DNA of 64,000 bases, from positions 288,001-352,000 of the forward strand of contig CP000067.1 in the NCBI GenBank assembly GCA_000002445.1. The letters are read 5' to 3'. The notes below the pieces were generated by a model. The model saw only the letters and a list, made by a program, of their open reading frames with translations, did no database searches and was not told where the DNA came from. Shown here piece after piece: positions 135 through 49,951 of this stretch (position 1 is the first letter of the stretch; every line of letters starts with the position of its first letter). A program made the translations under genes and the position numbers. The stretch is from Trypanosoma brucei (taxonomy: Eukaryota).

Positions 135-1967
135 CTACTGCACGAGGGAAGCGAATGCGGTCATGATCTCCTCGTGTTGCTTCTTGTAGTACTTAACGTT
201 GGCTTCTTCTCCTTCCTGAGGGTCTCGGAACTTCATTTCCGTGAGACCAGTGTAGACATGAGGGATCTTTTCGCGAATGTAATTCCACGTGATCTTGTGC
301 TCGCCCGCAGACTCCGCTACAACTCGCTGACCCTCCTCGTAGAAGGTGACAATGTTGCGCAACATCCAGCATGTCTTATACGGTGGGCAGTACTTGTCAT
401 ACGGAGTGAAGGCATTCTGCTGAAGAAATTCCTCACGGATAACTTTCGCAGTCTCTAGAATTATCTTGTCAGACTCAGAAAGGGAGTCTTTGCCGACGAG
501 CTGAACAATTTCCTGCAGCTCCTCTTCGCGCTGCAAAATCTCAGCGGCAACTGAGCGCAGCCGCATGTAGTCGGGGTCGAGAGAATTGAAGAAGGGCTCC
601 AAAGCCTTGAGGTACTTGGAGTAAGAAATGAGCCAGTTCACGGACGGGAAGTGTTTGCGTTGAGCGAGTCGCTTCTCGAGTCCCCAGAAAACTTGCACGA
701 TACCAAGGGTGGCGGACGTTACGGGATCGGAGAAATCACCACCCGGTGGGGAAACGGCACCAACAATTGTTACAGACCCTTCACGCTTGGGCCCACCGAT
801 GCATGTCACACGGCCAGCACGCTCGTAGAAGGAGGCCAAACGGGCGCTGAGGTACGCGGGATAACCTCCATCTGCAGGCATTTCAGCAAGACGACCGGAA
901 ATCTCACGCAAAGCCTCAGCCCAGCGGGAGGTTGAATCGGCCATCATGGCGATGTGTTTTCCCATATCCCGATAATACTCAGCTAAGGTGATACCAGTGT
1001 AAATAGATGCCTCACGAGCAGCAACAGGCATATTGGAAGTATTTGCCACCAGGCATGTGCGCTTCATGATAGACTCCTCACGTCCATCAATAATGGTGGT
1101 GAGAGTGGGAAAGTCCATGAGCACCTCCGCCATCTCATTGCCACGCTCACCACAACCCACGTAAATAACAGCGTCACTGTTCGAGTACTTCGAGAGTGCC
1201 TGACTGATAACTGTCTTGCCACAGCCAAACGCACCGGGGATGGCACAGGTTCCGCCCTGCACGGATGGAAACAGGGCATCAAGCACGCGCTGACCAGTAA
1301 GAAGTGGGTGGTTTCCAGACTCCTTTGAAGCCACAGGCCTGGGGGTCCGCACCGGCCACCGGTGCATGAGCTTGAGCGACTTGACCTTCCCATTGTACTC
1401 CAACTCCACAATATCGTCCTCCAGTGTGTAGTTTCCAGAAGCCACAATGGAAGTGACCCTCCCTCGGATGTTTGGCGGGACCATTATACTGTGGTTGTAC
1501 ATCAGTGAGTTCTCCACGACCGAACCAATAATATCGCCACCGGAAATGAGGTCCCCAACCTTCAAGCATGGTTTAAAATCCCATTGTTTCTGGTCGTTGA
1601 GGGACTTCACCTGGACGCCCCTAGGAATGAAGACGTTCTCCACCATGCGGTAGATGGTATCGAGGGGGCGCTGAATCCCATCAAATATTTCTGACATGAT
1701 ACCCGGCCCAAGTTCAAGGGAGAGAGGCTTACCTGTACAGTAGACTGGATCTCCAACGGTTAGCCCGCCAGTTTCCTCGTACACTTGAATAGTGGCCGTA
1801 TCACCCTCTAGTCGAATGATTTCACCCACCAACCGAAATGAGCCCACCTGCACAAGTTCGTACATCGCGCTGCCGCCCATGTTCTCCGCAATAACGACAG
1901 GTCCGGAAACAGCCTTGACGGAACCCATCCGCTGCTCTGTTTTGTATGGGTTGCGGTCGCTCGACAT
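135..1967 (-). CDS. V-type proton ATPase catalytic subunit A
   Basis: 610 aa ORF. Walker A 'GAFGCGKT' and the highly conserved A-subunit signature run the full length (e.g. '[15 protein letters not shown]', '[16 protein letters not shown]'). + strand polypurine tracts at 2010-2300 supply the upstream trans-splice signal. Confidence 0.95.
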
Positions 1968-6224: not shown

Positions 6225-7604
6225 CTACGAGGCTGAGGAGCATGCAAGCAAGAACAATGAATAATACGCGAAAAGCGGCATTGCAGCTACGGCAGGCAAT
6301 TTCTCTGTTGCCGAATCTGCTTTCCCCCCGCGCGACCCCTCCGTGCACGACTTTATGTCCTCCCACTTTACCCTTGTCATGGTACACGATATAAGATTCC
6401 GGCACCACGTGTTGCAGGTACCCTTGGGAAACAGTTTACCACTTGCCTTGCCGCCGCCGCTCCGTAACCGGATCCAGCGCCTCCATAGGAAGCTGTTGAC
6501 TCGAAATTTTGTAGCGAACGCGGTGAGCGCCTCTGTACTAGATAAATTCCCGACGGTTGACTCTACGTCCGGCGCCCTCCTCCACGTCGTTTTATCCAAG
6601 TAGTGATGGCGAAGGCTCTTCAGCTTCATAGTCACGTCATCAAGCTCTGCAATGAAGTAAGATGGAACATTCCCATACAAAGGCGTCAGTGACGGGATTG
6701 TAAAAGACATTATGTCAGGTCCAGCCACCTGGTATAAAAAGTGGTGAATGTGTCCGAAAATTTGCGACACCACGACACTCGCATGTTTCGCCACCAGTGC
6801 GTGGTAGCGCTCCTGAAACGAGGGTTTCCAATACATATCCTTTTCAACGGAACCGAAGGCCCCCCTGCTGAGCACGCCCCAAACGTCGATGTATGGTGGC
6901 ACGTGACTTATGATTATTACCTTCGCATTCTCCTTTTTCGCGTCTTCCAAGCTGGACTCAAGGAACTTCATCTGGTGGCATGGATCAACAACAGTGTCCG
7001 GAATAGGAACTTTGTTACAAAAACACCAGAGGACAGTGTTGAGCACAATGATCCGTAGGCGAGGTGAAACAACACGCTGATAGTACCCACATTCCCGGAA
7101 ACTTTTCCTTTGGCCCTCAGCCAAAAGGCCATTTTCCACCAATATTTCTTCCTGTTTCAGGGTGAAACTCTCCTGCTTAAATGCATCAAAGTGGTAGTTT
7201 GGCACCATATCGTTGTTTCCGAGGGAGACCGCCACACCCAGTCCGAACTCCCCTGTCTCGCCCGATTGTACAGTTTTAACCGCGGCCCGCACAATAAAGC
7301 CGAACGTGTCATTAATAGAAAACCCGCTTTTGCTGAATTTGTGTCGCTGAGCATCACCGTTGACAATAACAACATGAGGTGCTTGAGCCTCCATGTCCTG
7401 TTGAAATGATGTAATGAGTGCTTTTGGGGCATCGCAGCCCATCCGACCGTACTTGGGTGCGGGTTTGTGGCAAGAGTCGTATGCCTTAGACGTACCGTAC
7501 CCAGGGTCGTAGTGCGGATCTGATACCAACCCCACTCTCAAGGCACTACCGCCGCAAAGCGAAACAGCGGCGAAGACTAGAAGTAGTGGAAGGGCATCCA
7601 GCAT
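6225..7604 (-). CDS. Calcineurin-like metallophosphoesterase, acid-sphingomyelinase-like phosphodiesterase (secreted/GPI-type)
   Basis: 459 aa: signal peptide plus metallophosphatase motifs 'SDPHYD', 'GDAQRH', 'GNND', 'SHVPP', 'GHIHH', and a hydrophobic C-terminus that looks like a GPI signal or TM. First of a tandem pair. Confidence 0.75.
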   Translation of the reverse strand: MLDALPLLLVFAAVSLCGGSALRVGLVSDPHYDPGYGTSKAYDSCHKPAPKYGRMGCDAPKALITSFQQDMEAQAPHVVIVNGDAQRHKFSKSGFSINDTFGFIVRAAVKTVQSGETGEFGLGVAVSLGNNDMVPNYHFDAFKQESFTLKQEEILVENGLLAEGQRKSFRECGYYQRVVSPRLRIIVLNTVLWCFCNKVPIPDTVVDPCHQMKFLESSLEDAKKENAKVIIISHVPPYIDVWGVLSRGAFGSVEKDMYWKPSFQERYHALVAKHASVVVSQIFGHIHHFLYQVAGPDIMSFTIPSLTPLYGNVPSYFIAELDDVTMKLKSLRHHYLDKTTWRRAPDVESTVGNLSSTEALTAFATKFRVNSFLWRRWIRLRSGGGKASGKLFPKGTCNTWCRNLISCTMTRVKWEDIKSCTEGSRGGKADSATEKLPAVAAMPLFAYYSLFLLACSSAS

Positions 7605-8343
7605 TTACTTTCTCACGTTACCTCGTCTTTTGATATGGTCTCTACGTATTTACCCTCTCTGATGATGTGGTTGAAACGTTCCAATCGCTATGCTCCAACG
7701 AAACGGAATGGAAAGAAGTGAGAAAAGATACGGAAGGCAAATGTTAAAGGGAACAAACATCAGGATAAAACTGACGACGAGCATATACACAAGACAGCCG
7801 CCAGTAACAGGCTCCGAAAGCATGCAGACCGTTGGTACGCACGCCACAGTTATTCTATATCACCTCCGCACGTTAAAAGTTCGCTCGACATCCACAGAAA
7901 CAAAGTAAGAGAAAAATAAAGAGAAGCGAGGATGGGAAAAAAATCAAAAAAAAAACTAAAGAGCCATGTACAAATGTCGCACCATGCTTCGATGCGGTAG
8001 TGACAAGTGGTACCCTGCTCTTTTGCACCCCCATTGTCGTTGCTGACTTTTGTTCCAACATCCGCCAGGTCTGCATCGGGCCTTCGGCAAAAATATCATG
8101 AGCTTCCGCACGAAACCCAGAATCAGCGTGTCTTTTGGCAAGGCAACTGCGGTCCCAAAGTAACTGTAGTGACATATCAAGACGAATAAACTACGTCAGA
8201 GAGTCAGAAAAGATGGCAAAAATGGGGTTGGAGATCGTCGAGTAAATATTCCGGGACTGATCTCCTTGTGTACGTCAAAGGACCGTCTCGGAGCGCAAAC
8301 TATCCAACACGAGGGGATACCTCCCCATTCTTTTTTCCTCAAC

Positions 8344-9876
8344 TCAATTGTAAACCTTTTGTGCGCGGGTTGAAAACAGCCGTTGCGTAACCTCACGTTC
8401 TGCCCCCGGAGGAGGGGAAAAAATAATCCGCCTGCTTCCAAAACCGTACGTCAGGGCCGCAACTAACGCCAAGCCGCCACTGCATGCGGAAATTATTGAC
8501 AGCCAAACCCCGAGGCTTCGAGACGGCAATACAGACGTAGTGCAGTAGTCAATGTCCGTCTTCTCGTAATATACCGAAGCACATATAATAAGGTGGCGGC
8601 ACCAAAAACCACAATGCTCCTTTTCAGTTAGATAGCGACCACCAGCCCGCATCCTTGAAAAAGGTTCCCAATGTGCCTCACTTTGCGCAATGGTTAGATA
8701 ATCCTCCACAGAGTATTCATTCATCCCCCTGAGCGAAACGTGGAGAATGTCTTCCAATTTGTCTCCATAAACCCATGAACCGTTCTCTACCAGATATCGC
8801 TGCTGCAACGAAACCACCCGCCCAGTGTTACTGTCGAGCGTAGCCCGTATGTAGGATGGATTGCTTCCCGCAACCGGGGAAACCGATGGAATTATGTACA
8901 TCGGAGGACCCAGCTTAGATGATGCTACAAATCCCAGTGTACCAGTATGAAAAAACTGCGCTGCGACGGTGAAGCGGTTACTGCCAATGATGCGAAGATA
9001 GGCCTCCCGAAAGTCGTTGCGCCAATAGTAGGTTGCATCTCCAACACTTTTCATACGTACCGCCTCCTCAACATTGAGTATGGGAGGTTCGTTACCCAAT
9101 ATTATAACACTGCGGTCCCGCTGCTTTGCCCATTCAATGGATGCCTGAAGGAATGGAAATTGCCCACACGGATCAACATCCCCAACGCTAAGAGGTGGTC
9201 TCAATGAGTTTGACCACAGTAATGTGTTGAGGACAATTACTCGAATCTTTGTTCCGGCTACATCACGATAGTAAAAGCCACAGTAAGACATGTGTGAATG
9301 TTCCTCTCTTGTAAGCAGACCTTCGCTTAACATAAGACGCAACAGTTGTACGTACTGGGGTTGGGCACTAATGGGGCTGAAACTGTTAGCAGGGGAAAGG
9401 TCATTACCTCCCAGTGCCAAAACTGTTGGTTGTGATGCAGCATCCTGCGTGCCGTTTACCCCTGATGCAGAGGCAATCACACCTATCACCTCCTTCATTG
9501 TGTACTCCATTTCCGCGGGGGTAACCGTTTCCATGCTGTGGCGCATAAGACCACCAGAAAAGAGAGTGAAAGTCCCCTCCCATTTTGCTACGTCATCCAT
9601 AACGGACTGAACGAGCTTCAGTGGAGATTCACAGCCCGGGGTGACGAGTGACGCCTGCCCTTGGTTGCAAGGTCCGTACCCACCGGGTCGGCCATAGAGT
9701 ATATCGTAATTAAAGTCACCAAGTAAGGAAACAGTCAACTTCGGCAGCGTATCACGACCCAACACGCTGGTAGCGGAGGCTCTGAGCACTAATTGATGTA
9801 GTAAATCGGGCGCAATGGTCAGCGCACATACACTAAGGAAAATAACAAAGAGCGTGCAACACCTCTCCATGGTCAC
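8344..9876 (-). CDS. Paralogous acid-sphingomyelinase-like metallophosphoesterase, motif-degenerate (probable pseudo-enzyme)
   Basis: 510 aa with the same architecture as 6225-7604 (signal peptide, 'VIVLNT(L/V)LW' and 'DPC(G/H)Q' blocks). The metal-ligand motifs are substituted: 'GDFNYD', 'SGGLMRH', 'GGND', 'GNEPP', 'FFHTG'. It ends in a TM helix plus a short tail rather than a GPI signal. Confidence 0.7.
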   Translation of the reverse strand: MTMERCCTLFVIFLSVCALTIAPDLLHQLVLRASATSVLGRDTLPKLTVSLLGDFNYDILYGRPGGYGPCNQGQASLVTPGCESPLKLVQSVMDDVAKWEGTFTLFSGGLMRHSMETVTPAEMEYTMKEVIGVIASASGVNGTQDAASQPTVLALGGNDLSPANSFSPISAQPQYVQLLRLMLSEGLLTREEHSHMSYCGFYYRDVAGTKIRVIVLNTLLWSNSLRPPLSVGDVDPCGQFPFLQASIEWAKQRDRSVIILGNEPPILNVEEAVRMKSVGDATYYWRNDFREAYLRIIGSNRFTVAAQFFHTGTLGFVASSKLGPPMYIIPSVSPVAGSNPSYIRATLDSNTGRVVSLQQRYLVENGSWVYGDKLEDILHVSLRGMNEYSVEDYLTIAQSEAHWEPFSRMRAGGRYLTEKEHCGFWCRHLIICASVYYEKTDIDYCTTSVLPSRSLGVWLSIISACSGGLALVAALTYGFGSRRIIFSPPPGAEREVTQRLFSTRAQKVYN

Positions 9877-12196: not shown

Positions 12197-13963
12197 CTAG
12201 AGTATACCATTCTGGAGAGTTTGGAACTGATCGTACCGCCTCGTCCTCCAGTTGTCCACACTACCGACAATGAGTTCCTTAATATAAAGTGCAAAATCTC
12301 CCTCGTCCTCTAGATCCAAACGAAAGCGGGACCGCAGTTGCTGGATGGCAACTTCAGGAGAGGCCCCGAAACAAGGCAAAGTGTTGTAAGGCGTCATTAG
12401 CGAGACAAGTGCTACGATATCATCAGCTTTCTCGCGTATGGCTCTCATCCCCAAGAAGAACAATAGCTTAAAGTAATTAAATGGTGAACTTCCAACACCT
12501 CCCATTACTTCAAGGAGCTCTTGTGACAGTTTGAAAGGGGCTGATTCGAAGTTGACACCACCGGGAGATGTGACGAGCATAAAACCAAAGTCTATGTGCA
12601 CCAAACGGCCGTCTGCCCTTATCAAAATGTTCCCGTTGTGTCTATCTTTCACCTGAAGGATATAGGTAAAGATACTGTAACCAGCCATTGTCTCCACGAA
12701 ATTTCGCTGAGCCTCCCTATATCTTTGGGAACCCTTGCCACCAAAGGCCTCATTGAAGAACTGGGGAAGGTACGCCATCTGACATGACTTCTTGATTCCA
12801 TCAATGGAACAGGCACCCTCTACACACTCAATAATTCCAGAATCCACACCGACGGCAAGTGCCCTATAGGGGACAAGAGAGCATGTAAGTCCGGCATTCT
12901 TCCATATATTGTTGAAGAGGTCAACAAGTTGTAACGCCAACTCCTCTTGCCGCAAATTATCTCCACCTTTGACCACAAATGTGGCTGTACCCCAATTAGG
13001 ATGCCTCCCAAAGAATGACTTCTCGCGCAGACGAGCAGCTCGTTCCTCCGGAAGCTCTCCAAAGACCTTCCGAAACAACTTCATGTCAGGGGAAGCGGAC
13101 TTGATCGCAGTTACCTCCCCTCCTACATCTTCCCCCCTTCGGTCCAGCGACTGCTCCTCCATCAATTCATCTGATTCCGCCGAAATTTTAAACTTTCCAT
13201 TGGGAAGTCGTAACTTAGATGTAGTTGGGTCATTGACAGTTGCAGTGGAATCAACAATGACTTCGCATCGAAGGAGAAACGGCGCTCTCTCACGAGAAAA
13301 GAATACGACACTATCTTCAACAACGATGTTTACAATCCACTTTACCGGATCGTCATTACAACCCAAAGGGCATATGAGTGACTGCGACCTCAGTGATTTG
13401 TTGATTTCATCCAGCTCCTTCTTTAGCTCATGTTGTCGCCGATCTCTCTTGGTGAACGAAATTAAATGTTTACTCAAGTTGGTGATAAGATTGAGGAATG
13501 CTCTCTCATCGTTGAAAAGCTTAAGTCGCAGTTCCTTGCGCCTAATCTCTTCCTCTACCCCGTCAGTGTTGTTGGTTCGATCTGCTACACCCTTGCGGTT
13601 GATGGCAAAACTCTCGATCTTGTCGTGCACTTCCTTCACGCGCCCTCCAAGCCCAACGGCCGAAAACACGTCGCGTACCGAGTCCACTGTCCATGAGAGC
13701 CGCAACGCCAAGGTAAAAGATCGCCCCGCCAGCCAATGCATAAAACGTCGCAGGCGGTTACTTACCTCCGGACCCTTGTGCGTGATACAAGCATGAGATA
13801 TTTGAAGGAAGACCCTTTCAATGGTTGCAAGGGGGAACTCATGCAGATTTTGAACAAGAGCCATTTGCTCATCCTGAGAACCCCTCGGTAGGTACAGCAG
13901 TACCTCCAGAAGCCTGTGAAGACAAAACAAAGCATTCGACATTGCGTGGGAAAAAGGAAACAA
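12197..13963 (-). CDS. Phosphatidylinositol 4-kinase (PI4K III-beta-like)
   Basis: 588 aa; C-terminal PI3/PI4-kinase catalytic motifs 'KDRHNGNILIRADGRLVHIDFGFML' and 'GKGSQRYREAQRNFVETMAGYSIFTYILQ'. Size and domain order fit PI4KIII-beta. Confidence 0.85.
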   Translation of the reverse strand: MFPFSHAMSNALFCLHRLLEVLLYLPRGSQDEQMALVQNLHEFPLATIERVFLQISHACITHKGPEVSNRLRRFMHWLAGRSFTLALRLSWTVDSVRDVFSAVGLGGRVKEVHDKIESFAINRKGVADRTNNTDGVEEEIRRKELRLKLFNDERAFLNLITNLSKHLISFTKRDRRQHELKKELDEINKSLRSQSLICPLGCNDDPVKWIVNIVVEDSVVFFSRERAPFLLRCEVIVDSTATVNDPTTSKLRLPNGKFKISAESDELMEEQSLDRRGEDVGGEVTAIKSASPDMKLFRKVFGELPEERAARLREKSFFGRHPNWGTATFVVKGGDNLRQEELALQLVDLFNNIWKNAGLTCSLVPYRALAVGVDSGIIECVEGACSIDGIKKSCQMAYLPQFFNEAFGGKGSQRYREAQRNFVETMAGYSIFTYILQVKDRHNGNILIRADGRLVHIDFGFMLVTSPGGVNFESAPFKLSQELLEVMGGVGSSPFNYFKLLFFLGMRAIREKADDIVALVSLMTPYNTLPCFGASPEVAIQQLRSRFRLDLEDEGDFALYIKELIVGSVDNWRTRRYDQFQTLQNGIL

Positions 13964-18803: not shown

Positions 18804-21530
18804 TCACGACCATTTTTTAAGGAAAGGGTTGACGAGCACGTCCGGGTCGTCTGAAGAATCCCTCTTCCCCTCGACGACAGGAGGTATATCGCCACCCCAA
18901 ACGTGTCTCGTGGGCTGCGGAGAACCAGCTTGGTGACGCTGCGTGAAGTTCAGTGGCGCTGCGGGATACCCCGCGCTTGCTGCCGTTGGTGGTTTTGGAT
19001 GTGCTAACGAAGTCTTACTGGGCCCCATGCTTAGCTGTTTCACGGCAGAAGTTGGAACGGGCGCAAGATTCACCACAGGGGGCAGTGGGGCCGACACGCC
19101 TGCTGCAGCACCCGGAAATAGTTCCGCGGGACCACTCTGTGGTCCACCTTTAATAGGGTGGACTTCAGCCGCCTGATCTCCATGATGCTGCAGGTTCGTT
19201 GAAACCCTTCCAGCACATTGGAATTGCACTTCATTCGCTGATACCCTTTCCGTTTTAAAGTGTCTCCTTTGCTTCCAGCATTGTTGCAAAAATCCAGACG
19301 CGCTGACAGCAACAATACTAATAACTGTGAAAAAAAGTGTGCTCATATTTATCGAAGACGTTTCGCCTCCGTAAGTTCCCACATCACCACCAGCGAACGG
19401 GTTAGCATCGAGGGTTTGAGACTGCCCTGGAGCAGGTGTATTGCCGTGACTATCACCTACAGTGGTATTATCACTGGCGGTACAGCGGCAACCACCAACC
19501 GAAAAATCAGACTTATCTCGACCCCCTTGAACTGCTTCGTCGGTTAATCCAACAGTGTCCACGATTTTCGCCACAACCTGCCTAAGCTTCATAACACCTT
19601 CACGGCACTCGGGCACCAATTGATTCTGAACAACGCAGCGCCCCCTCATATTATACACATCGTCACCAATCAGGCTGGCGAGTGCGCTCGCGTCGTCAGC
19701 CAACTGCTTCAAAAGCACAACAAAATCCGTTCCATCCTCTCTGGTCTCTTCTAAAGAGACCTTGCCATCCCTCTCATAACGTTTCTGCAACTCAGTTTCA
19801 TCATCATCAGGTTGCTGTGGCTCAGCTTCATTATCATCAGGTTGCTGTGGCTCAGCTTCATTATCATCAGGTTGCTGTGGCTCAGTTTCATTATCATCAG
19901 GTTGCTGTGGCTCAGTTTCCTTATCATCAGGTTGCTGTGGCTCAGCTTCATTATCATCAGGTTGCTGTGCCTCAGTTTCCTTATCATCAGGTTGCTGTGC
20001 CTCAGTTTCATTATCATCAGGTTGCTGTGGTTCAGTTTCCTTATCATCAGGTTGCTGTGCCTCAGTTTCCTTATCATCAGGTTGCTGTGCCTCAGTTTCC
20101 TTGTCATCAGGTTGCTGTGCCTCAGTTTCCTTATCATCAGGTTGCTGTGGTTCAGTTTCCTTATCATCAGGTTGCTGTGCCTCAGTTTCCTTATCATCAG
20201 GTTGCTGTGCCTCAGTTTCCTTGTCATCAGGTTGCTGTGCCTCAGTTTCCTTATCATCAGGTTGCTGTGCCTCAGTTTCATTATCATCAGGTTGCTGTGG
20301 TTCAGTTTCCTTATCATCAGGTTGCTGTGCCTCAGTTTCCTTATCATCAGGTTGCTGTGCCTCAGTTTCCTTGTCATCAGGTTGCTGTGCCTCAGTTTCC
20401 TTATCATCAGGTTGCTGTGCCTCAGTTTCATTATCATCAGGTTGCTGTGCCTCAGTTTCATTATCATCAGGTTGCTGTGGCTCAGTTTCCTTATCATCAG
20501 GTTGCTGTGCCTCAGTTTCATTATCATCAGGTTGCTGTGCCTCAGTTTCATTATCATCAGGTTGCTGTGCCTCAGTTTCATTATCATCAGGTTGCTGTGC
20601 CTCAGTTTCCTTATCATCAGGTTGCTGTGCCTCAGTTTCCTTATCATCAGGTTGCTGTGGCTCAGTTTCCTTGTCATCAGGTTGCTGTGCCTCAGTTTCA
20701 TTATCATCAGGTTGCTGTGCCTCAGTTTCATTATCATCAGGTTGCTGTGCCTCAGTTTCCTTATCATCAGGTTGCTGTGCCTCAGTTTCCTTGTCATCAG
20801 GTTGCTGTGCCTCAGTTTCCTTGTCATCAGGTTGCTGTGCCTCAGTTTCATTGTCATCAGGTTGCTGTGGTTCACTTTCATTATCATCAGGTTGCTGTGC
20901 CTCAGTTTCCTTATCATCAGGTTGCTGTGCCTCAGTTTCCTTATCATCAGGTTGCTGTGGTTCACTTTCATTATCATCAGGTTGCTGTGCCTCAGTTTCC
21001 TTGTCATCAGGTTGCTGTGCCTCAGTTTCATTGTCATCAGGTTGCTGTGGTTCACTTTCATTATCATCAGGTTGCTGTGCCTCAGTTTCCTTATCATCAG
21101 GTTGCTGTGCCTCAGTTTCCTTATCATCAGGTTGCTGTGGTTCACTTTCATTATCATCAGGTTGCTGTGCCTCAGTTTCCTTGTCATCTGGCGGCTTTAC
21201 ACGAGCTGATCCATTGGTGGTGTGTGCTGCATCCCTCTCCTCTTCGTTGTGGTTTTTGGCTCTCATCACTTGGCTGCCGCGGCCCACGTTGTTCTCGTCC
21301 GCCTCCTGACGTCCTTGGGCGCCAGTCTTGAGCTGAGTATCGGTTCTGTGGAGGCCGCCATCGCCTTCGACAGGAAACCGAGGTGCTCTGTTGCTTCTGC
21401 GCACTGCTTTCAATGTCCGTGCCTCGCCCACTTTACCTGTGTTAGCGTGTGCTATACAAGTAGAACACCAGCCTGCAACGCATGACACAACGGTTAACAG
21501 AAGTATCTTTGCGGTGTGGAGATGACGCAT
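18804..21530 (-). CDS. Type-I membrane protein with about 47 tandem acidic decapeptide repeats (PDD[K/N]ETE[A/P]QQ)
   Basis: 908 aa: N-terminal signal peptide 'MRHLHTAKILLLTVVSCVAGWCSTCIAHA', a long 10-aa repeat array, a cysteine-containing unique domain, a TM helix 'LFFTVISIVAVSASGFL', and a Pro-rich cytoplasmic tail. The repeat holds all three frames open on both strands, which explains the overlapping ORFs in the track. Confidence 0.8.
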   Translation of the reverse strand: MRHLHTAKILLLTVVSCVAGWCSTCIAHANTGKVGEARTLKAVRRSNRAPRFPVEGDGGLHRTDTQLKTGAQGRQEADENNVGRGSQVMRAKNHNEEERDAAHTTNGSARVKPPDDKETEAQQPDDNESEPQQPDDKETEAQQPDDKETEAQQPDDNESEPQQPDDNETEAQQPDDKETEAQQPDDNESEPQQPDDKETEAQQPDDKETEAQQPDDNESEPQQPDDNETEAQQPDDKETEAQQPDDKETEAQQPDDKETEAQQPDDNETEAQQPDDNETEAQQPDDKETEPQQPDDKETEAQQPDDKETEAQQPDDNETEAQQPDDNETEAQQPDDNETEAQQPDDKETEPQQPDDNETEAQQPDDNETEAQQPDDKETEAQQPDDKETEAQQPDDKETEAQQPDDKETEPQQPDDNETEAQQPDDKETEAQQPDDKETEAQQPDDKETEAQQPDDKETEPQQPDDKETEAQQPDDKETEAQQPDDKETEAQQPDDKETEPQQPDDNETEAQQPDDKETEAQQPDDNEAEPQQPDDKETEPQQPDDNETEPQQPDDNEAEPQQPDDNEAEPQQPDDDETELQKRYERDGKVSLEETREDGTDFVVLLKQLADDASALASLIGDDVYNMRGRCVVQNQLVPECREGVMKLRQVVAKIVDTVGLTDEAVQGGRDKSDFSVGGCRCTASDNTTVGDSHGNTPAPGQSQTLDANPFAGGDVGTYGGETSSINMSTLFFTVISIVAVSASGFLQQCWKQRRHFKTERVSANEVQFQCAGRVSTNLQHHGDQAAEVHPIKGGPQSGPAELFPGAAAGVSAPLPPVVNLAPVPTSAVKQLSMGPSKTSLAHPKPPTAASAGYPAAPLNFTQRHQAGSPQPTRHVWGGDIPPVVEGKRDSSDDPDVLVNPFLKKWS
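19791..21196 (-). repeat. Tandem array of about 47 copies of a 30-bp coding repeat
   Basis: Unit 'ctcagtttccttatcatcaggttgctgtgc' (+ strand), with variant positions giving K/N and A/P alternations. The array is in-frame, with no spacers or leader, so it is coding and not CRISPR. Confidence 0.95.
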
Positions 21531-21800
21531 CGTTAGGCCACCTTGGGAGTAGCTGATATTGAAGAAAGCACACCCCTTCAGATGATGAACTAAACAACAG
21601 GCTCAACTGTATGAGGTAGGTATTGAAATCCTGGGAAAATGTTGGGCGGGACCCCAACCACCTTACAAAGTGAAGGAGGTAGGAAAAGAAAATAACATGA
21701 TGACTCGGCAAACCACAAAATCTCTGACGCAGCAGTTAAATCAAGCAATAAAAAAGTGTTTCAACCATTGGTACCAAAAACCGGGTCCCTTACACAAATA

Positions 21801-22820
21801 TTAATCCCTACGTAGAGAAAATTCCATGGTGTCACCGGGAACAGTATCTATCCTAACCGGCTCCACACCCATGGTATCTATACTGGTACCAATCCGCATC
21901 ATTGTTCCACCGATGCGTTGCGGCTTCACGGGCGGGAGGTTTCTCAAAGATGGAGGTACCACTGGTGGCGCGTCGTATCCCACTTCTTCGAGTGACAAGC
22001 AAGGCCCCCTGGACCCAGCGCCACCAAGGAGGTCTCGCACGTCGCCTCTGGGATGAGGTACTACTATTTCAATAATATCAAGAGGCTTCATCTCCTTCTT
22101 CACTTCCTTTGCCATAACTTCATGCTTTATTTTCCACACACCTGACCCCTCCAGTGCCGCCTCGTCACGAATTTCCTCCGTGGTTTTTAGAGGTGCTGGG
22201 ATCGACCGAAGAATGTCGTCAGCAGCGGCTTTGGCTATATTAAGATCCTTCGCCTCGCTTTTAAGAAGAATAACCACGTGCTTCATGTTCCTTTCGGATG
22301 CAATATAGAGAGGACTTTTCCCATCTATGTCACAAACTTCAGTCTTCGCGTCCGCCCGAAGCAGGCGGTACACGACCTCGTGAAATCCCGCTTTAGCTGC
22401 AACGAACAGTGGAGTTTCTTTCCTACTGTTACGGGCATTAATATCACCTCCTTTTGCTAATATGATCTCAATGAGAGCAGCGTCACCGATGCGGGAAGCC
22501 AAATGCAGGACAGTCTCTCCGCCGCCGCCATTTACCACATTAGGATTCGCACCCCTTTCCAGCAGCAGCTGCGCAACATCCCTCTTTCCGTTAAAGCACG
22601 CTATGTACAGCGGGGTTTCAAGATCTGAACCCTTTAAATCTGTTTGCGCCCCCAGCTGCAGAATCTCCTTGACGGTGCTAACACCTACCCCCTTCTTCAT
22701 GCATGCGTAGTAGAGTGGCGTGTATCCGTCGGAGTTCGTAGTATTTACGTTGCCACACGACAAGGTGCGACGCAGTGTACCATGGTCCTGGCGGTCAATT
22801 GCATCAAAGGCGGCTTCCAT
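21801..22820 (-). CDS. Ankyrin-repeat protein
   Basis: 339 aa with several ANK units ('GYTPLYYACMKKG', 'ETPLYIACFNGKRDVAQLLLERGANPN', 'ETVLHLASRIGDAALIEIILAKGGDINARN', 'ETPLFVAAKAGFHEVV', 'KSPLYIASERNMKHVVILL'). Confidence 0.9.
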   Translation of the reverse strand: MEAAFDAIDRQDHGTLRRTLSCGNVNTTNSDGYTPLYYACMKKGVGVSTVKEILQLGAQTDLKGSDLETPLYIACFNGKRDVAQLLLERGANPNVVNGGGGETVLHLASRIGDAALIEIILAKGGDINARNSRKETPLFVAAKAGFHEVVYRLLRADAKTEVCDIDGKSPLYIASERNMKHVVILLKSEAKDLNIAKAAADDILRSIPAPLKTTEEIRDEAALEGSGVWKIKHEVMAKEVKKEMKPLDIIEIVVPHPRGDVRDLLGGAGSRGPCLSLEEVGYDAPPVVPPSLRNLPPVKPQRIGGTMMRIGTSIDTMGVEPVRIDTVPGDTMEFSLRRD

Positions 22821-29985: not shown

Positions 29986-30075
29986 ACCGCGTCAGGGGCG
30001 ATAATTAATATACTTCTGGGTGCCACCTAAATTTCCACGTTCAGTCGTTGTTGACATTTGTTCAGGTGAGGCGAT

Positions 30076-30235
30076 GCCGGCCACCTCAACGTGGTGCCAT
30101 GGTCCAGTACCCCGTATCATCGGGGGAAGCCAAGAGCCAGCAGCATTCCTTTCATGGGGAACAATGCTTTGCTTTTGCAACGGCACCGAGCAGCACTGAG
30201 ATGAGCCGCGCCGTGATGGAGAACATTTTTTTTTT
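30076..30235 (+). ncRNA. Candidate Pol III small RNA, copy A (about 155 nt; unassigned; 5' end has an SRP-RNA/Alu-domain-like flavour)
   Basis: It starts about 90 bp downstream of the divergent tRNA-Pro (29985), which is the tRNA-dependent Pol III arrangement typical of trypanosomatid U6/7SL/U3-type genes. It ends in T10 (30226-30235). It carries a conserved 10/11-bp hairpin ('agcagc(g/a)ttcc-tttcatgg-ggaaca(c/a)tgct'). The 5' 100 nt are almost identical to copy B. Confidence 0.55.
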
Positions 30236-31467
30236 GTAGAGCCCTGGGCACGTGTTCTCGTGCTATCGGCAGTTTGTTCTATGAATCACTGATTTGTTTC
30301 CGTTGGACTGATAAGTGTTCATGAGGCAATTTTCACCTTGCAGTGGCAGCTGTAGTCTCTCGACTGAGTGAAAGATGTGTGTGAGTTTGTCGTCCGAAGC
30401 GAAAAGGTGATGTAGTTGGCGGCGCTTAATGAAATAGCTGCGGTGCTGTTGACTGTTCCTCATGCGTGGAACGGGCGTAAAGCGGCATTTAAGAGGGTGC
30501 TGCATGTTTGATGTGTTTTCACTTCCGGAATAATTCGGTGGTGGCGTAGACGTACTACTATGTTTGTTGCAGCGGCCGTAGCGCTGAGTTATTGCACCGG
30601 TCAAGAAGTAGAACTAGAGCACGGGGAAAATGAAAAACCAGTAGTTTTGTGCTCAGGCGTATACCCAAAGTGTTCCGTATGTGTTGAGTAGGATAAACGG
30701 AGAAAAAAATGGATGAGAGCGTGGCGTTCACCAGAGTGGGTGCAATTAGAGGGTCCCCGAACTAACGGTTAAAAAATATATCACTTTTCCAGGTTGTCAC
30801 AGGAGTTTTGTCACATGAGCCCGCTATGTGCAGCCCCTAAGCATCAAGGGAAGAATCTTTGTAAGTATAGGAACACCGATCGTAATAAATGGGCGCAGAG
30901 ACTGCCGGTGTTGTTGAGTTCTAGATTAAGGTAAACACAAGTTTTTAATTCCGAGCACGAAGTGTGTTGTAATTGAAGGGTATGTATCATTTATAGTGTG
31001 TGCTACTGGGTGTTTCTCACGCACAAGAAATACTTTGTTGATACCACAAAATCAAGAATACTGTAGTCTTTTTCCTCACGGAATGTAGAAAAATCGAAGG
31101 TGAATGCAAGGTCGTCACTTTAGCGTATACAATGGTTTCATCTCATTTTTTATCTTTCTTTTACTGACCTGGAAATAACGCTTTTGTTACCCCGGAGTCA
31201 GATGATAGGTGGGCCTTTCAGGGAGACGGGGAACAAATACAATGCAAGTGGAGATGACAAGGGTGTGGTAGATGAATGATTCGCAATATGGGGGGAACTT
31301 GCGGTAAATTTACTATCTCTTGTACAGGTGTTGGTTGTATGATCGTACTTAGTATTGTGGAAGTGTTTTTTTTTCACCATTGTTTTGTACGTGTTGTATC
31401 TGTTGTTGTTGGGTGGTAAAGTGTTTATATTTTGTTTTTTGTGTGTTTGGGTAGGGAATTGTAGGTA

Positions 31468-32463
31468 ATGAAAGTCAAGATTATAGAATGGTTGGTCTTC
31501 CTATCTTTTGTTATTTATACCGAAGGGGCCGAAGACGAAGGTCGCTGCAGACTGGTAGATGATCATTCTTTTAAAAATTTACATGAATCCGTATGCTATC
31601 TCAGCTGCCTTTCGGATGCACTAAACAAATTATACACCAATGGAGAGAGGAAGTTGCTTGTGAATGAGGAAGTATATGCGAACGCATCTCGTATATTGGA
31701 TGATATGGAAGGGAGAGCAGGTGAAAGTGTCAAATATTTGAGTGTTATTAGTGATGCAATGGGAGGGAAACATGATAAATTGGAAAAACTTATATCTTAT
31801 GGAAATACAATGGGAGACCTGGTGGCTAAGGTAGGTGGATTATTTGCTGATGTTAATGAAAGTGTGAGGGTGGTGAGAGAGCTGTTGCCCACTGCCCTCA
31901 TGGAAGCAAATAGATACTATACGGCCAGTGCAGAAATTACAAGGACTGTGTGGGATGATGTTAAGGCGGTAGAGGGCAGCGACGAGGAAGCTGCAAAGTG
32001 TAAAGGAGAAAACATTGGTGTTACAGAGTTCCCGACGACTTGTGGCAACCACACATGTCCTTTGAGAGATAATGTAAGTGACGATACTCTTCAAAAGTAT
32101 AAGGACGGGTGCCTTGAAATAAATGTGCTGAAGACTCCCGGATATGTAAGTGAATGCTTGAACCGACCAAGGAACAAATTGTACATGGATGGTGCGGTAA
32201 ATAATTTGAGCGACACAATAAAGTGGAGAGGGGAGAGTCGAGACGGAGCCATTTTTTTCCAGCTGACGGTCCAAGTACAAAATGTCTTTGGTCCCCTTAT
32301 CGGACCTTTTTCCGCCGGGCAGCCCCCTCCCGTACTTCTTGAAGTAATGTCAAATATCACCTCTCTTCACTCCCACTTTAACAAGGTGCATAACAACTTC
32401 ACGTCGCTGCTATTCGACATTGATGTTGCTGGTAATGTTACCACCGCTAATTCTTCCATCTGA
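31468..32463 (+). CDS. Putative secreted/surface glycoprotein (signal peptide; helical N-terminal part; Cys-rich; about 9 N-glycosylation sequons)
   Basis: 331 aa, and the only long ORF in the AT-rich island. Hydrophobic N-terminal signal 'MKVKIIEWLVFLSFVIYTEG'. A T/G-rich tract with an AG lies just upstream (31370-31467), a plausible + strand trans-splice acceptor. It runs opposite to the surrounding transcription unit. No family assignment. Confidence 0.4.
   Translation: MKVKIIEWLVFLSFVIYTEGAEDEGRCRLVDDHSFKNLHESVCYLSCLSDALNKLYTNGERKLLVNEEVYANASRILDDMEGRAGESVKYLSVISDAMGGKHDKLEKLISYGNTMGDLVAKVGGLFADVNESVRVVRELLPTALMEANRYYTASAEITRTVWDDVKAVEGSDEEAAKCKGENIGVTEFPTTCGNHTCPLRDNVSDDTLQKYKDGCLEINVLKTPGYVSECLNRPRNKLYMDGAVNNLSDTIKWRGESRDGAIFFQLTVQVQNVFGPLIGPFSAGQPPPVLLEVMSNITSLHSHFNKVHNNFTSLLFDIDVAGNVTTANSSI

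Positions 32464-48559: not shown

Positions 48560-49951
<1,392 letters not shown>

What the first reader, a model, noticed from the sequence alone, without database searches (positions are those of the whole stretch)
6225..9876. Tandem acid-sphingomyelinase-like metallophosphoesterase pair: one motif-complete and GPI-type, one motif-degenerate and TM-anchored
The two adjacent paralogues share overall architecture (signal peptide, 'RVIVLNT(L/V)LW', 'DPC(H/G)Q' blocks). The downstream copy (6225-7604) keeps the metal-ligand set of the calcineurin-like fold (D-x-H, GD-x-x-x-H, GNN/HD, H, GHxH). The upstream copy (8344-9876) has D→G, N→G, H→N and lost-GHxH substitutions at essentially every ligand position, and swaps the GPI-like C-terminus for a TM helix plus a short cytosolic tail. 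That is the signature of a pseudo-enzyme retained next to its active paralogue, possibly as a regulatory or binding partner. Even the 'active' copy has GNND instead of GNH(D/E), so its chemistry may be atypical.
Basis: partly seen in the sequence, partly recalled or inferred. Interest (0 to 1): 0.55.

Follow-up and report, generated by a model that had tools for sequence, protein, structure and literature searches.

The report
Live and dead SMPDL3-like enzyme pair
Two neighbouring Trypanosoma brucei genes encode relatives of the mammalian membrane enzymes SMPDL3A/B: one keeps every metal-binding residue and should be an active phosphodiesterase, while the other has lost them yet has been carefully preserved across the whole genus, so it is a working "dead enzyme" whose job is unknown.

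Summary
The window is T. brucei chromosome 4. The ORFs at 6225-7604 (Tb927.4.1110, ID verified by published primers) and 8344-9870 (next gene; true ATG at 9870, not 9876) are paralogues (28% identity, E=7e-49). AlphaFold models of both match SMPDL3B, SMPDL3A and ASM structures.

Copy 1 keeps all seven metal ligands in nine Trypanosoma species. Its GNND motif is the majority state among the 150 closest relatives, so it marks a subfamily and is not a local oddity.

Copy 2 has lost the bridging Asp, the Asn and two His ligands in every orthologue, and retains 0-3 of 7 ligands. Its former ligand columns now evolve like average columns. Even so, it is intact in all strains checked, has dN/dS of 0.14-0.29, and is more conserved than copy 1 in 28 of 28 species pairs. 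It is a selectively maintained pseudoenzyme, not a pseudogene.

New points:
- The GPI-type tail of copy 1 is derived, found only in salivarian trypanosomes. A TM helix plus tail is ancestral.
- The same live/dead tandem sits at a syntenic locus in another kinetoplastid, but Angomonas has only the live copy.
- The database name "beta-fructofuranosidase-like" comes from a Leishmania fusion with a GH32 domain.

A partner ("prozyme") role is plausible but untested. Moderate interest.

The parts
6225..7604 (-). Copy 1 CDS, 459 aa plus stop = Tb927.4.1110 (identical to TREU927 XP_844261.1). SMPDL3-type metallophosphoesterase with a complete metal-ligand set.
   Evidence: ORF. Pfam Metallophos 23.4 bits against a 21.5 cut-off. 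SMPDL3B 5kar E=9e-15. AF2 pLDDT 88; Foldseek SMPDL3B 9.5e-29, TM 0.84. Published primers match exactly at 7031-7053 and 6538-6559. Identical to P0179.
7542..7604 (-). Copy 1 N-terminal signal peptide (residues 1 to about 21, MLDALPLLLVFAAVSLCGGSA).
   Evidence: Hydrophobic N-terminus. Signal peptide reported in PMC3378594 Table 1. The cleavage site is inferred.
7506..7523 (-). Copy 1 motif I, SDPHYD: D29 and H31, equivalent to ASM D206/H208 (Zn2 ligands).
   Evidence: Ligand roles from PMC5062611.
7341..7358 (-). Copy 1 motif II, GDAQRH: D84 is the bridging Asp (ASM D278); H88 is equivalent to ASM H282, the alternative proton donor.
7209..7220 (-). Copy 1 motif III, GNND: N130 is equivalent to ASM N318 (Zn1 ligand); N131 replaces the proposed proton-donor His (ASM H319).
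   Evidence: GNND/GNED/GNDD is the majority state in the 150 closest relatives.
6894..6908 (-). Copy 1 motif IV, SHVPP: H234, equivalent to ASM H425.
6744..6755 (-). Copy 1 motif V, GHIH: H285 and H287, equivalent to ASM H457/H459.
6228..6317 (-). Copy 1 C-terminal GPI-attachment-type signal (residues 430-459: candidate omega region D-S-A, short spacer, hydrophobic end, no cytosolic tail).
   Evidence: Hydrophobic window 439-455 with 4 residues after it. BigPI and FragAnchor both positive in PMC3378594. The omega site is inferred.
8344..9870 (-). Copy 2 CDS, 508 aa plus stop (identical to TREU927 XP_844262.1; presumably Tb927.4.1120). SMPDL3 fold with a degenerate metal site: a pseudo-phosphodiesterase.
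   Evidence: ORF. ATG at 9870. No Pfam hit. SMPDL3B E=3.5e-8. AF2 pLDDT 82.8; Foldseek SMPDL3B 2.4e-28, TM 0.81. dN/dS 0.14-0.29.
9772..9870 (-). Copy 2 N-terminal signal or anchor sequence (residues 1 to about 33).
   Evidence: Hydrophobic N-terminus. Modelled as a detached helix, residues 2-34. The cleavage site is inferred.
9703..9720 (-). Copy 2 degenerate motif I, GDFNYD: D52 kept, His replaced by N54.
9538..9555 (-). Copy 2 degenerate motif II, GGLMRH: bridging Asp replaced by G107 (G or S in all orthologues); R110-H111 invariant.
9400..9411 (-). Copy 2 degenerate motif III, GGND: Asn ligand replaced by G155; N156 in the proton-donor position; D157 invariant.
9082..9096 (-). Copy 2 degenerate motif IV, GNEPP: His replaced by N260 (Asp in the other species).
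8938..8952 (-). Copy 2 degenerate motif V, F-HTGT: one-residue deletion; first His kept (H308), second His replaced by G310.
8440..8514 (-). Copy 2 transmembrane helix (residues 453-477).
   Evidence: Hydrophobicity. Helix in the model. Conserved in all orthologues.
8347..8439 (-). Copy 2 cytosolic tail (residues 478-508) carrying the conserved pattern (I/V)(I/V)F-x-PP ... R-x-(R/L)-LF.
   Evidence: Alignment of nine orthologues.

Best explanation
Shown: these are two old tandem paralogues of the saposin-less SMPDL3 branch of the acid-sphingomyelinase-like metallophosphoesterases. Both are made with an N-terminal signal sequence and face the exoplasmic or lumenal side of a membrane.

Copy 1 (Tb927.4.1110) keeps the full two-metal centre. 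Inferred: it is an active phosphodiesterase or phosphatase of a GNND-type subfamily. The invariant His88 (equivalent to ASM H282) would act as the general acid in place of the missing GNH-His. Its substrates are more likely soluble phosphoesters such as nucleotides than sphingomyelin, because there is no saposin domain. It is GPI-anchored in African (salivarian) trypanosomes and TM-anchored elsewhere.

Copy 2 cannot assemble the two-metal centre. The bridging Asp, the Asn ligand and two His ligands are gone in every species, so it does not hydrolyse phosphoesters (inferred from ligand loss). It is nevertheless kept under purifying selection as a folded type-I membrane protein.

Inferred mechanism for copy 2: the conserved SMPDL3-fold ectodomain is used as a non-catalytic binding module. 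It is tied through a TM helix to a conserved cytosolic motif, which would make it a receptor, sorting or scaffold type of protein. Pairing with copy 1 is one possible mode and is listed separately as a rival.
For: Paralogy.

Family and fold. The 18 best PDB matches of each model are all SMPDL3B, SMPDL3A or ASM at E of 1e-23 to 1e-29; the next fold class is at about 1e-9.

No saposin domain: motif I starts 7 residues (copy 1) or 18 residues (copy 2) after the predicted signal sequence.

Ligand roles: PMC5062611. D278A, D206A and H425A abolish ASM activity.

Copy 1: 7 of 7 ligand columns are invariant in 9 species, against a protein-wide mean column identity of 0.48.

Copy 2: D2, N3, H4 and H5b are lost in all 9 orthologues, and 0-3 of 7 ligands are retained. 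Replacement residues differ between species. Ligand columns have mean identity 0.49 against 0.58 protein-wide.

Selection: copy 2 dN/dS is 0.14 (T. theileri/T. melophagium) and 0.19-0.29 (T. cruzi/T. conorhini/T. rangeli). Copy 1 is 0.27-0.32. Neighbouring genes are 0.04-0.24. Copy 2 is more conserved than copy 1 in 28 of 28 species pairs.

Intactness: full-length in all T. brucei subspecies and T. cruzi lineages listed.

Other: conserved TM helix and tail motif. Tandem order conserved in six Trypanosoma species and in the kinetoplastid metagenome locus L007. GNND/GNED/GNDD is the majority among close relatives. A bacterial ASM-like enzyme without a saposin domain hydrolyses ATP, not sphingomyelin (PMC4140839).
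Against: No biochemical, localisation or expression data for copy 2 were found; a literature search on its presumed ID returned nothing.

Several copy 2 orthologues keep Asp, Asn or His side chains at some former ligand positions (for example T. theileri D, H, -, -, D, H, N). A weak single-metal site or an unconventional activity cannot be excluded from sequence.

R110-H111 and D157 stay invariant, so some phosphate-binding capacity may persist.

No member of the GNND subfamily was found to have been characterised, so the activity of copy 1 is itself an inference. Its transcript was low, proventriculus-preferential and not detected in bloodstream forms in the one dataset found.

The ectodomain-as-binding-module idea has no direct support beyond conservation.
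Confidence: 0.5

Rival explanations
1. Prozyme-type partnership. Copy 2 forms a heterodimer with copy 1 on the exoplasmic face. The dead subunit would complete or regulate the substrate site, and in African trypanosomes would supply the only TM anchor and cytosolic sorting signal for the GPI-anchored live subunit.
For: Mammalian SMPDL3A and SMPDL3B are reported to act through substrate-induced dimerisation, and dimer structures exist (8w6p, 9k2e).

Trypanosomatids repeatedly use dead paralogues as obligate activators: AdoMetDC, DHS, PRMT1 and the editosome RNase III pairs (PMC5201418, PMC3663545, 10.1101/776112, PMC9508840).

The live/dead tandem is conserved in all six Trypanosoma species examined and in L007.

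The anchors are complementary (GPI against TM plus tail) in salivarian species.
Against: The syntenic Angomonas deanei locus has only the live copy, with no remnant of a second gene within 21 kb, so copy 1-type enzymes can exist without a partner.

Copy 1 has an unimpaired ligand set, unlike the weakened enzymes in the known prozyme pairs.

Copy 1 evolves faster than copy 2 in 28 of 28 species pairs.

Conserved gene order is the rule in trypanosome polycistronic units, so adjacency carries little weight.

No interaction data exist, and no complex could be modelled with the tools available.
Confidence: 0.28
2. Copy 2 is still an enzyme with a remodelled active site (single-metal or metal-independent) that acts on a different substrate.
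For: The fold, R110-H111 and D157 are invariant. Asp replaces His at motif IV in 8 of 9 orthologues. Asn or His persist at some positions. Purifying selection is strong.
Against: The bridging Asp is Gly or Ser everywhere and the Asn ligand is Gly, Val or Glu. T. vivax keeps 0 of 7 ligands. The residues at former ligand positions differ between species and are no more conserved than average columns, which is not expected of a functioning catalytic site. There is no Pfam Metallophos hit.
Confidence: 0.1
3. Copy 2 is a decaying pseudogene that merely still has an open frame.
For: Loss of catalytic residues; no Pfam hit.
Against: Intact ORFs in nine Trypanosoma lineages and all strains checked. 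dN/dS is 0.14-0.29, similar to neighbouring housekeeping genes. It is more conserved than the live paralogue. The predicted fold is confident.
Confidence: 0.02

Closest known systems
Mammalian SMPDL3B (acid sphingomyelinase-like phosphodiesterase 3b; PDB 5kar, 9k2e)
   Same: It is the best sequence and fold match for both copies. It shares the architecture: signal peptide, metallophosphoesterase domain and helical C-terminal domain, with no saposin domain. Like T. brucei copy 1 it is GPI-anchored (stated in PMC13157387).
   Different: Only 20-22% identity. SMPDL3B has GNHD, copy 1 has GNND, and copy 2 lacks the metal site. Copy 2, and the non-salivarian copy 1 orthologues, are TM-anchored with cytosolic tails.
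Acid sphingomyelinase (SMPD1/ASM; PDB 5i81, 5jg8)
   Same: Same catalytic and C-terminal domain fold. The seven-ligand two-zinc centre maps one-to-one onto copy 1.
   Different: ASM has an N-terminal saposin domain needed for lipid access, and neither copy has one. The proposed proton donor H319 is Asn in copy 1. Sphingomyelinase activity should not be assumed (see RsASML, PMC4140839).
Trypanosomatid prozymes (AdoMetDC prozyme, DHSp, PRMT1-PRO)
   Same: Each is a catalytically dead paralogue retained under selection alongside a live enzyme in the same organisms.
   Different: Those are cytosolic, proven heteromers, and the live subunit is intrinsically weak. Here no interaction is shown, the proteins are exoplasmic membrane proteins, and copy 1 looks fully equipped.
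Non-catalytic metallophosphoesterase-fold proteins such as Vps29 and the B-subunits of replicative DNA polymerases (from my own knowledge, not tested here)
   Same: They are calcineurin-like folds that lost the metal ligands and serve as protein-binding scaffolds.
   Different: They belong to unrelated branches of the superfamily, are cytosolic or nuclear, and are not paired in tandem with a live paralogue.
Leishmania 'beta-fructofuranosidase-like protein' (P0025/P0167, 1090 aa)
   Same: Its N-terminal 450 residues are a copy 1-type, ligand-complete GNND domain.
   Different: It is fused to GH32 N- and C-terminal domains and a PAN domain, and lies at a non-syntenic locus. The Trypanosoma proteins have no GH32 part, so their database name is a carry-over.

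Membership tests
Calcineurin-like metallophosphoesterase superfamily (Pfam PF00149) | Pfam Metallophos score above the gathering cut-off | tested here: met
   Copy 1 scores 23.4 bits against a 21.5 cut-off. Copy 2 has no hit, so this is not met for copy 2 by sequence profile.
Calcineurin-like metallophosphoesterase superfamily (Pfam PF00149) | Five motifs providing seven metal ligands (DxH, GDxxxH, GNH[D/E], H, GHxH) | tested here: met
   Copy 1 has all seven ligands, invariant in 9 species; only the non-ligand His of GNH is Asn. For copy 2 this feature was tested and is NOT met: 2 of 7 in T. brucei and 0-3 of 7 in orthologues.
Calcineurin-like metallophosphoesterase superfamily (Pfam PF00149) | Metallophosphoesterase fold | tested here: met
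   Both AF2 models (pLDDT 88.0 and 82.8) match metallophosphoesterase structures only.
ASM-like / SMPDL3 subfamily | Catalytic domain plus family-specific helical C-terminal domain, aligned over the full length | tested here: met
   Foldseek gives 433-440 aligned columns against 406-412-residue SMPDL3B chains, with TM (target) of 0.81-0.84. The top 18 hits for both copies are all ASM, SMPDL3A or SMPDL3B. The conserved C-terminal Cys pattern is shared.
Acid sphingomyelinase proper (SMPD1) | N-terminal saposin domain | tested here: not met
   Motif I begins 7 residues (copy 1) or 18 residues (copy 2) after the predicted signal sequence. There is no room for a saposin domain, and no Pfam saposin hit.
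Acid sphingomyelinase proper (SMPD1) | Sphingomyelin hydrolysis at acidic pH | not testable with these tools
   This needs an enzyme assay. RsASML shows that homology does not predict it (PMC4140839).
GPI-anchored surface protein (copy 1) | N-terminal signal peptide plus C-terminal hydrophobic GPI-attachment signal without a cytosolic tail | tested here: met
   The terminal hydrophobic stretch 439-455 has 4 residues after it. BigPI and FragAnchor are positive for Tb927.4.1110 (PMC3378594), and the gene ID was verified by primers. Actual anchor addition has not been shown.
Pseudoenzyme (dead paralogue under selection), copy 2 | Loss of residues essential for catalysis, with the fold retained | tested here: met
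   The essential nature of the ligands is from PMC5062611.
Pseudoenzyme (dead paralogue under selection), copy 2 | Purifying selection and intact ORF across lineages | tested here: met
   dN/dS is 0.14-0.29. Intact in all lineages and strains listed.
Pseudoenzyme (dead paralogue under selection), copy 2 | Demonstrated absence of catalytic activity; protein expressed | not testable with these tools
   This needs biochemistry and proteomics.
Prozyme-type activator | Physical complex with the live paralogue, and activation of it | not testable with these tools
   No complex modelling or interaction data were available.
Prozyme-type activator | Strict co-occurrence of the live and dead paralogues | tested here: not met
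   They co-occur in six Trypanosoma species and in L007. The syntenic Angomonas locus has the live copy only. The rest of the Angomonas genome was not searched.
GH32 beta-fructofuranosidase (database name of the orthologues) | Glyco_hydro_32N/32C domains | tested here: not met
   Neither window protein has a GH32 hit. GH32 domains are present only in the Leishmania fusion P0025.

The most novel reading that the evidence does not exclude
The pair is an exoplasmic 'prozyme' system: a GPI-anchored live SMPDL3-type phosphodiesterase that works as a heterodimer with its TM-anchored dead paralogue. The dead subunit would supply part of the substrate site, as in the substrate-induced dimers of SMPDL3A/B, together with the only cytosolic sorting signal. 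This would extend the trypanosomatid prozyme principle from cytosolic metabolism to the parasite surface or endolysosomal system.
Probability: 0.2. Interest if true: 0.7.

Novelty: new variant of a known kind. Interest (0 to 1): 0.42.

Why it matters
The ASM-like family is medically important (Niemann-Pick disease, SMPDL3A/B in innate immunity). I found no description of a conserved catalytically dead branch of it. Here such a branch has been kept under selection throughout the genus Trypanosoma, and probably longer, next to a live paralogue.

Exoplasmic proteins of African trypanosomes are few and are of interest as drug, vaccine and diagnostic targets. Trypanosomatids have also repeatedly turned dead paralogues into essential enzyme regulators. 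The pair therefore gives a concrete, cheap hypothesis to test with tagging, pull-down and an activity assay with and without the partner.

The work also corrects a misleading database name ("beta-fructofuranosidase-like"). It documents a TM-to-GPI anchor switch specific to salivarian trypanosomes, and it shows that GNND/GNED-type ASM-like enzymes form a large uncharacterised subfamily.

Tried and rejected
1. A third homologous-protein search, using a profile of copy 2-like sequences, returned only the nine known orthologues. The word-index candidate cap meant it did not extend the phyletic range.

2. A neighbour-joining tree with 100 bootstraps supports the two Trypanosoma clades (100% and 98%). 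It cannot resolve whether the degenerate copies of other kinetoplastids (L007 upstream gene, P0053, P0052) share an origin with copy 2 (13% support; long-branch attraction is possible). A single ancient origin therefore rests on shared synteny and orientation only. The first attempt at this tree timed out.

3. dN/dS between T. brucei and distant species was unusable because dS is saturated. Only the closer pairs were used.

4. Literature searches for the gene IDs, for 'acid sphingomyelinase-like' plus Trypanosoma, and for 'beta-fructofuranosidase-like' found only the 2012 GPI-prediction paper. Nothing was found on copy 2.

5. I checked whether equal-length ORFs elsewhere in the window were paralogues: 48560-49939 (459 aa), and the two 331-aa ORFs at 31468-32463 and 41308-42303. 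They are unrelated.

6. No tandem repeats occur in or between the genes. There is no DNA similarity between the copies, so recent gene conversion is excluded.

7. The plain-pseudogene reading was rejected.

8. The GH32/invertase reading of the database name was rejected.

Full report
**Identity of the sequence.** The window is Trypanosoma brucei chromosome 4. The two proteins are identical to T. b. brucei TREU927 XP_844261.1 (459 aa) and XP_844262.1 (508 aa). Both lie on the minus strand within one run of same-strand genes: EMP70, ribosomal protein L21e, copy 1, copy 2, a LYR-motif protein, and PI 4-kinase. The RT-PCR primers published for Tb927.4.1110 match copy 1 exactly, at 7031-7053 and 6538-6559. 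Copy 1 is therefore Tb927.4.1110. Copy 2 is the next gene, presumably Tb927.4.1120, but I could not verify that ID.

**Check of the observation.** Both ORFs are present at the stated coordinates. The first codon of the 8344-9876 ORF is GTG. The eukaryotic start, which is also the annotated one, is the ATG at 9870. The proteins are clear but old paralogues, with 28% identity over 434 residues and E=7e-49. They share no nucleotide-level similarity, and there is no third copy in the window. The quoted sequence blocks and motifs are all there.

**Family.** Copy 1 passes Pfam Metallophos narrowly (23.4 bits against a 21.5 cut-off), and copy 2 has no Pfam hit. Against the PDB, both find only SMPDL3B, SMPDL3A and acid sphingomyelinase. 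Copy 1 reaches 9e-15 and copy 2 reaches 3.5e-8. AlphaFold models are confident: copy 1 has pLDDT 88.0 and pTM 0.85, and copy 2 has pLDDT 82.8 and pTM 0.77. For each model the 18 best Foldseek matches are ASM, SMPDL3A or SMPDL3B chains, at E of 1e-23 to 1e-29 and target TM of about 0.8 for the SMPDL3 chains (about 0.62-0.74 for the longer ASM chains). SMPDL3B is first, and the next fold class (purple acid phosphatases and others) appears only at about 1e-9. The alignments cover both the catalytic domain and the family-specific C-terminal domain. Neither protein has room for a saposin domain, because motif I begins 7 residues (copy 1) or 18 residues (copy 2) after the predicted signal sequence. 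In architecture they are SMPDL3-type, not ASM-type.

**Ligand mapping.** The human ASM structure paper defines the ligand roles (PMC5062611):
- D206 and H208 bind Zn2.
- D278 is the bridging ligand.
- N318 and H425 bind Zn1.
- H457 and H459 are axial ligands.
- H319 is the proposed proton donor, with H282 as the alternative.
- D206A, D278A and H425A are inactivating.

Copy 1 has D29, H31, D84, H88, N130, N131, H234, H285 and H287 at these positions. That is all seven ligands plus the H282 equivalent, with Asn in place of H319. These columns are invariant in nine Trypanosoma species, although the protein-wide mean column identity is only 0.48.

T. brucei copy 2 has D52, N54, G107, H111, G155, N156, N260, H308 and G310 at the same positions. 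Across nine orthologues the bridging Asp is always Gly or Ser. The Asn ligand is Gly, Val or Glu. The motif IV His is Asp or Asn. The last His is Asn, Ser, Gly or Thr. Only 0 (T. vivax) to 3 (T. theileri) of the seven ligands survive. The replacement residues differ between species. The seven former ligand columns have mean pairwise identity 0.49, which is no higher than the protein-wide 0.58. This is the pattern expected once a catalytic site has been abandoned. Two neighbouring residues, the R-H of motif II and the Asp of GNxD, stay invariant in both copies.

**Is copy 2 a pseudogene?** No.
- It is full-length in TREU927, T. b. gambiense, T. equiperdum and T. b. equiperdum, with zero or one amino-acid difference. 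It is 507 aa in CL Brener, Sylvio, YC6 and T. c. marinkellei.
- Nei-Gojobori dN/dS on pairs with unsaturated dS is 0.14 for T. theileri/T. melophagium, 0.29 for T. conorhini/T. rangeli, and 0.19-0.26 for pairs with T. cruzi.
- Copy 1 gives 0.27-0.32. The neighbours give 0.04-0.09 (L21e), 0.14 (EMP70), 0.11-0.24 (patatin) and 0.15 (PfkB).
- Copy 2 is more conserved than copy 1 in 28 of 28 species pairs.

The "dead" copy is therefore under at least as much constraint as the "live" one.

**The GNND point.** An exhaustive profile search found 4563 family members. Among the 150 best, nearly all have the complete ligand set. The large majority have Asn, Glu or Asp, not His, after the Asn ligand. GNHD appears in only a handful, such as a dictyostelid protein and an annelid SMPDL3B-like protein. 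GNND is therefore a trait of a large, mostly uncharacterised subfamily that includes Bodo, Angomonas and Leishmania proteins. It is atypical relative to ASM and SMPDL3, but it is not a trypanosome peculiarity. Because H88 (ASM H282, the alternative proton donor) is invariant, it is the obvious candidate for the general acid. This is an inference.

**Anchors.** Copy 1 ends in a hydrophobic stretch with 0-4 residues after it only in T. brucei, T. congolense and T. vivax. In T. theileri, T. melophagium, T. grayi, T. cruzi, T. conorhini, T. rangeli SC58, Angomonas and other relatives it has a TM helix followed by a 16-109-residue tail. Savage et al. 2012 predicted Tb927.4.1110 to be GPI-anchored with two programs. 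They found low, proventriculus-preferential transcript levels and no detection in bloodstream forms. The GPI-type end is thus a derived feature of salivarian trypanosomes. Copy 2 keeps what looks like the ancestral topology, with a conserved tail pattern (I/V)(I/V)F-x-PP ... R-x-(R/L)-LF.

**Age and distribution.**
- The order copy 2, copy 1, L21e is conserved in T. cruzi, T. theileri, T. melophagium, T. conorhini and T. rangeli. In T. cruzi the copy 1-L21e-EMP70 block is duplicated.
- A JGI metagenome contig with clear kinetoplastid synteny (L007) carries the same arrangement. Its upstream gene is degenerate (DVQ, GS, GVTD, GNIPL, GYYE; TM plus tail). Its downstream gene is ligand-complete (DIH, GDWLRH, GNND, AHIPP, GHTH).
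- A second contig, carrying P0052, looks similar, but no DNA was available for it.
- The syntenic Angomonas deanei locus has a single ligand-complete gene and no trace of a second.
- The Leishmania relative is a fusion of a copy 1-type domain with GH32 and PAN domains, at a different locus. This explains why the Trypanosoma orthologues are named "beta-fructofuranosidase-like" although they have no GH32 domain.
- A neighbour-joining tree supports each Trypanosoma clade (100% and 98%) but does not resolve deeper relationships.

**Mechanism.**
- Shown: two exoplasmic membrane proteins with the SMPDL3 fold, one with and one without a metal centre, both under purifying selection.
- Inferred for copy 1: it is an active two-metal phosphodiesterase or phosphatase. 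It is more likely to act on soluble phosphoesters than on sphingomyelin. It lacks the saposin domain, and the only characterised saposin-less microbial member hydrolyses ATP (PMC4140839).
- Inferred for copy 2: it does not catalyse phosphoester hydrolysis and is kept for a non-catalytic role of its ectodomain, coupled to a conserved cytosolic tail.
- Unresolved: whether that role is as a partner of copy 1. In favour are the reported substrate-induced dimerisation of SMPDL3A/B, the dimer structures among the top hits, and the repeated use of dead paralogues as activators in trypanosomatids. Against are the lone copy 1 in Angomonas, the intact active site of copy 1, and the weak evidential value of conserved gene order in trypanosomes.
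- My estimates: about 0.5 for an independent or unspecified non-catalytic role, 0.28 for a heterodimer, 0.1 for residual or novel catalysis, and 0.02 for a pseudogene.

**Novelty and score.** Both genes are annotated as hypothetical proteins. The only literature found is the 2012 in-silico GPI prediction for copy 1. Nothing describes copy 2 as a conserved dead ASM-like protein, the anchor switch, or the GNND subfamily. Pseudoenzyme paralogues are common and are well known in trypanosomes, so a specialist would find this interesting but not startling. It is a new variant within a known family and offers a directly testable hypothesis. Interest: 0.42.

Noticed in passing
L002:12279-13760 and L002:17442-18923 (T. 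cruzi); also L001: In T. cruzi the block copy 1 - L21e - EMP70 is tandemly duplicated, giving two near-identical copy 1 genes but only one copy 2.
   Followed up: partly
L008:10001-13273 (Leishmania braziliensis), protein P0025/P0167: Leishmania encodes a 1090-aa fusion of a ligand-complete GNND ASM-like domain with GH32 N- and C-terminal domains and a PAN domain, at a non-syntenic locus. This fusion is the likely source of the misleading name 'beta-fructofuranosidase-like' on the Trypanosoma orthologues.
   Followed up: partly
L007:9453-12593 (JGI metagenome contig Ga0558118_12589): An unidentified kinetoplastid contig from a metagenome shares the window's synteny and has the same degenerate-upstream, complete-downstream tandem. 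The organism was not identified.
   Followed up: partly
P0018 (EukProt, 1027 aa): This was the top hit of the exhaustive search. It has two degenerate ASM-like domains whose central parts are identical in sequence, which looks like an assembly or transcript concatenation artefact. The source organism is unknown.
   Followed up: no
L006:12355-13755 (T. rangeli) versus P0019 (T. rangeli SC58): The copy 1 gene model in one T. rangeli assembly ends 3 residues after the TM helix, whereas strain SC58 has a 39-residue tail. This may be a strain difference or an assembly or annotation error.
   Followed up: no
L003:10001 and L004:10001 (T. theileri, T. melophagium copy 2): The annotated copy 2 models start at MLVADLHYD and lack the signal sequence seen in the other species (466 aa against about 508). 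The start codons are probably mis-called. Upstream frames were not examined.
   Followed up: no
window 30001-32000 and 20001-22000: GC skew flips to +0.26 at 30-32 kb, and the only long plus-strand ORF of the window (31468-32463) lies there. AT skew drops to -0.30 at 20-22 kb, where several long ORFs overlap on both strands (18804-21530), which suggests a repetitive or low-complexity gene.
   Followed up: no
window 12197-13963: The PI 4-kinase ORF is listed from a TTG codon, so the real eukaryotic ATG start differs from the ORF start that the ORF listing reports under the bacterial code.
   Followed up: no
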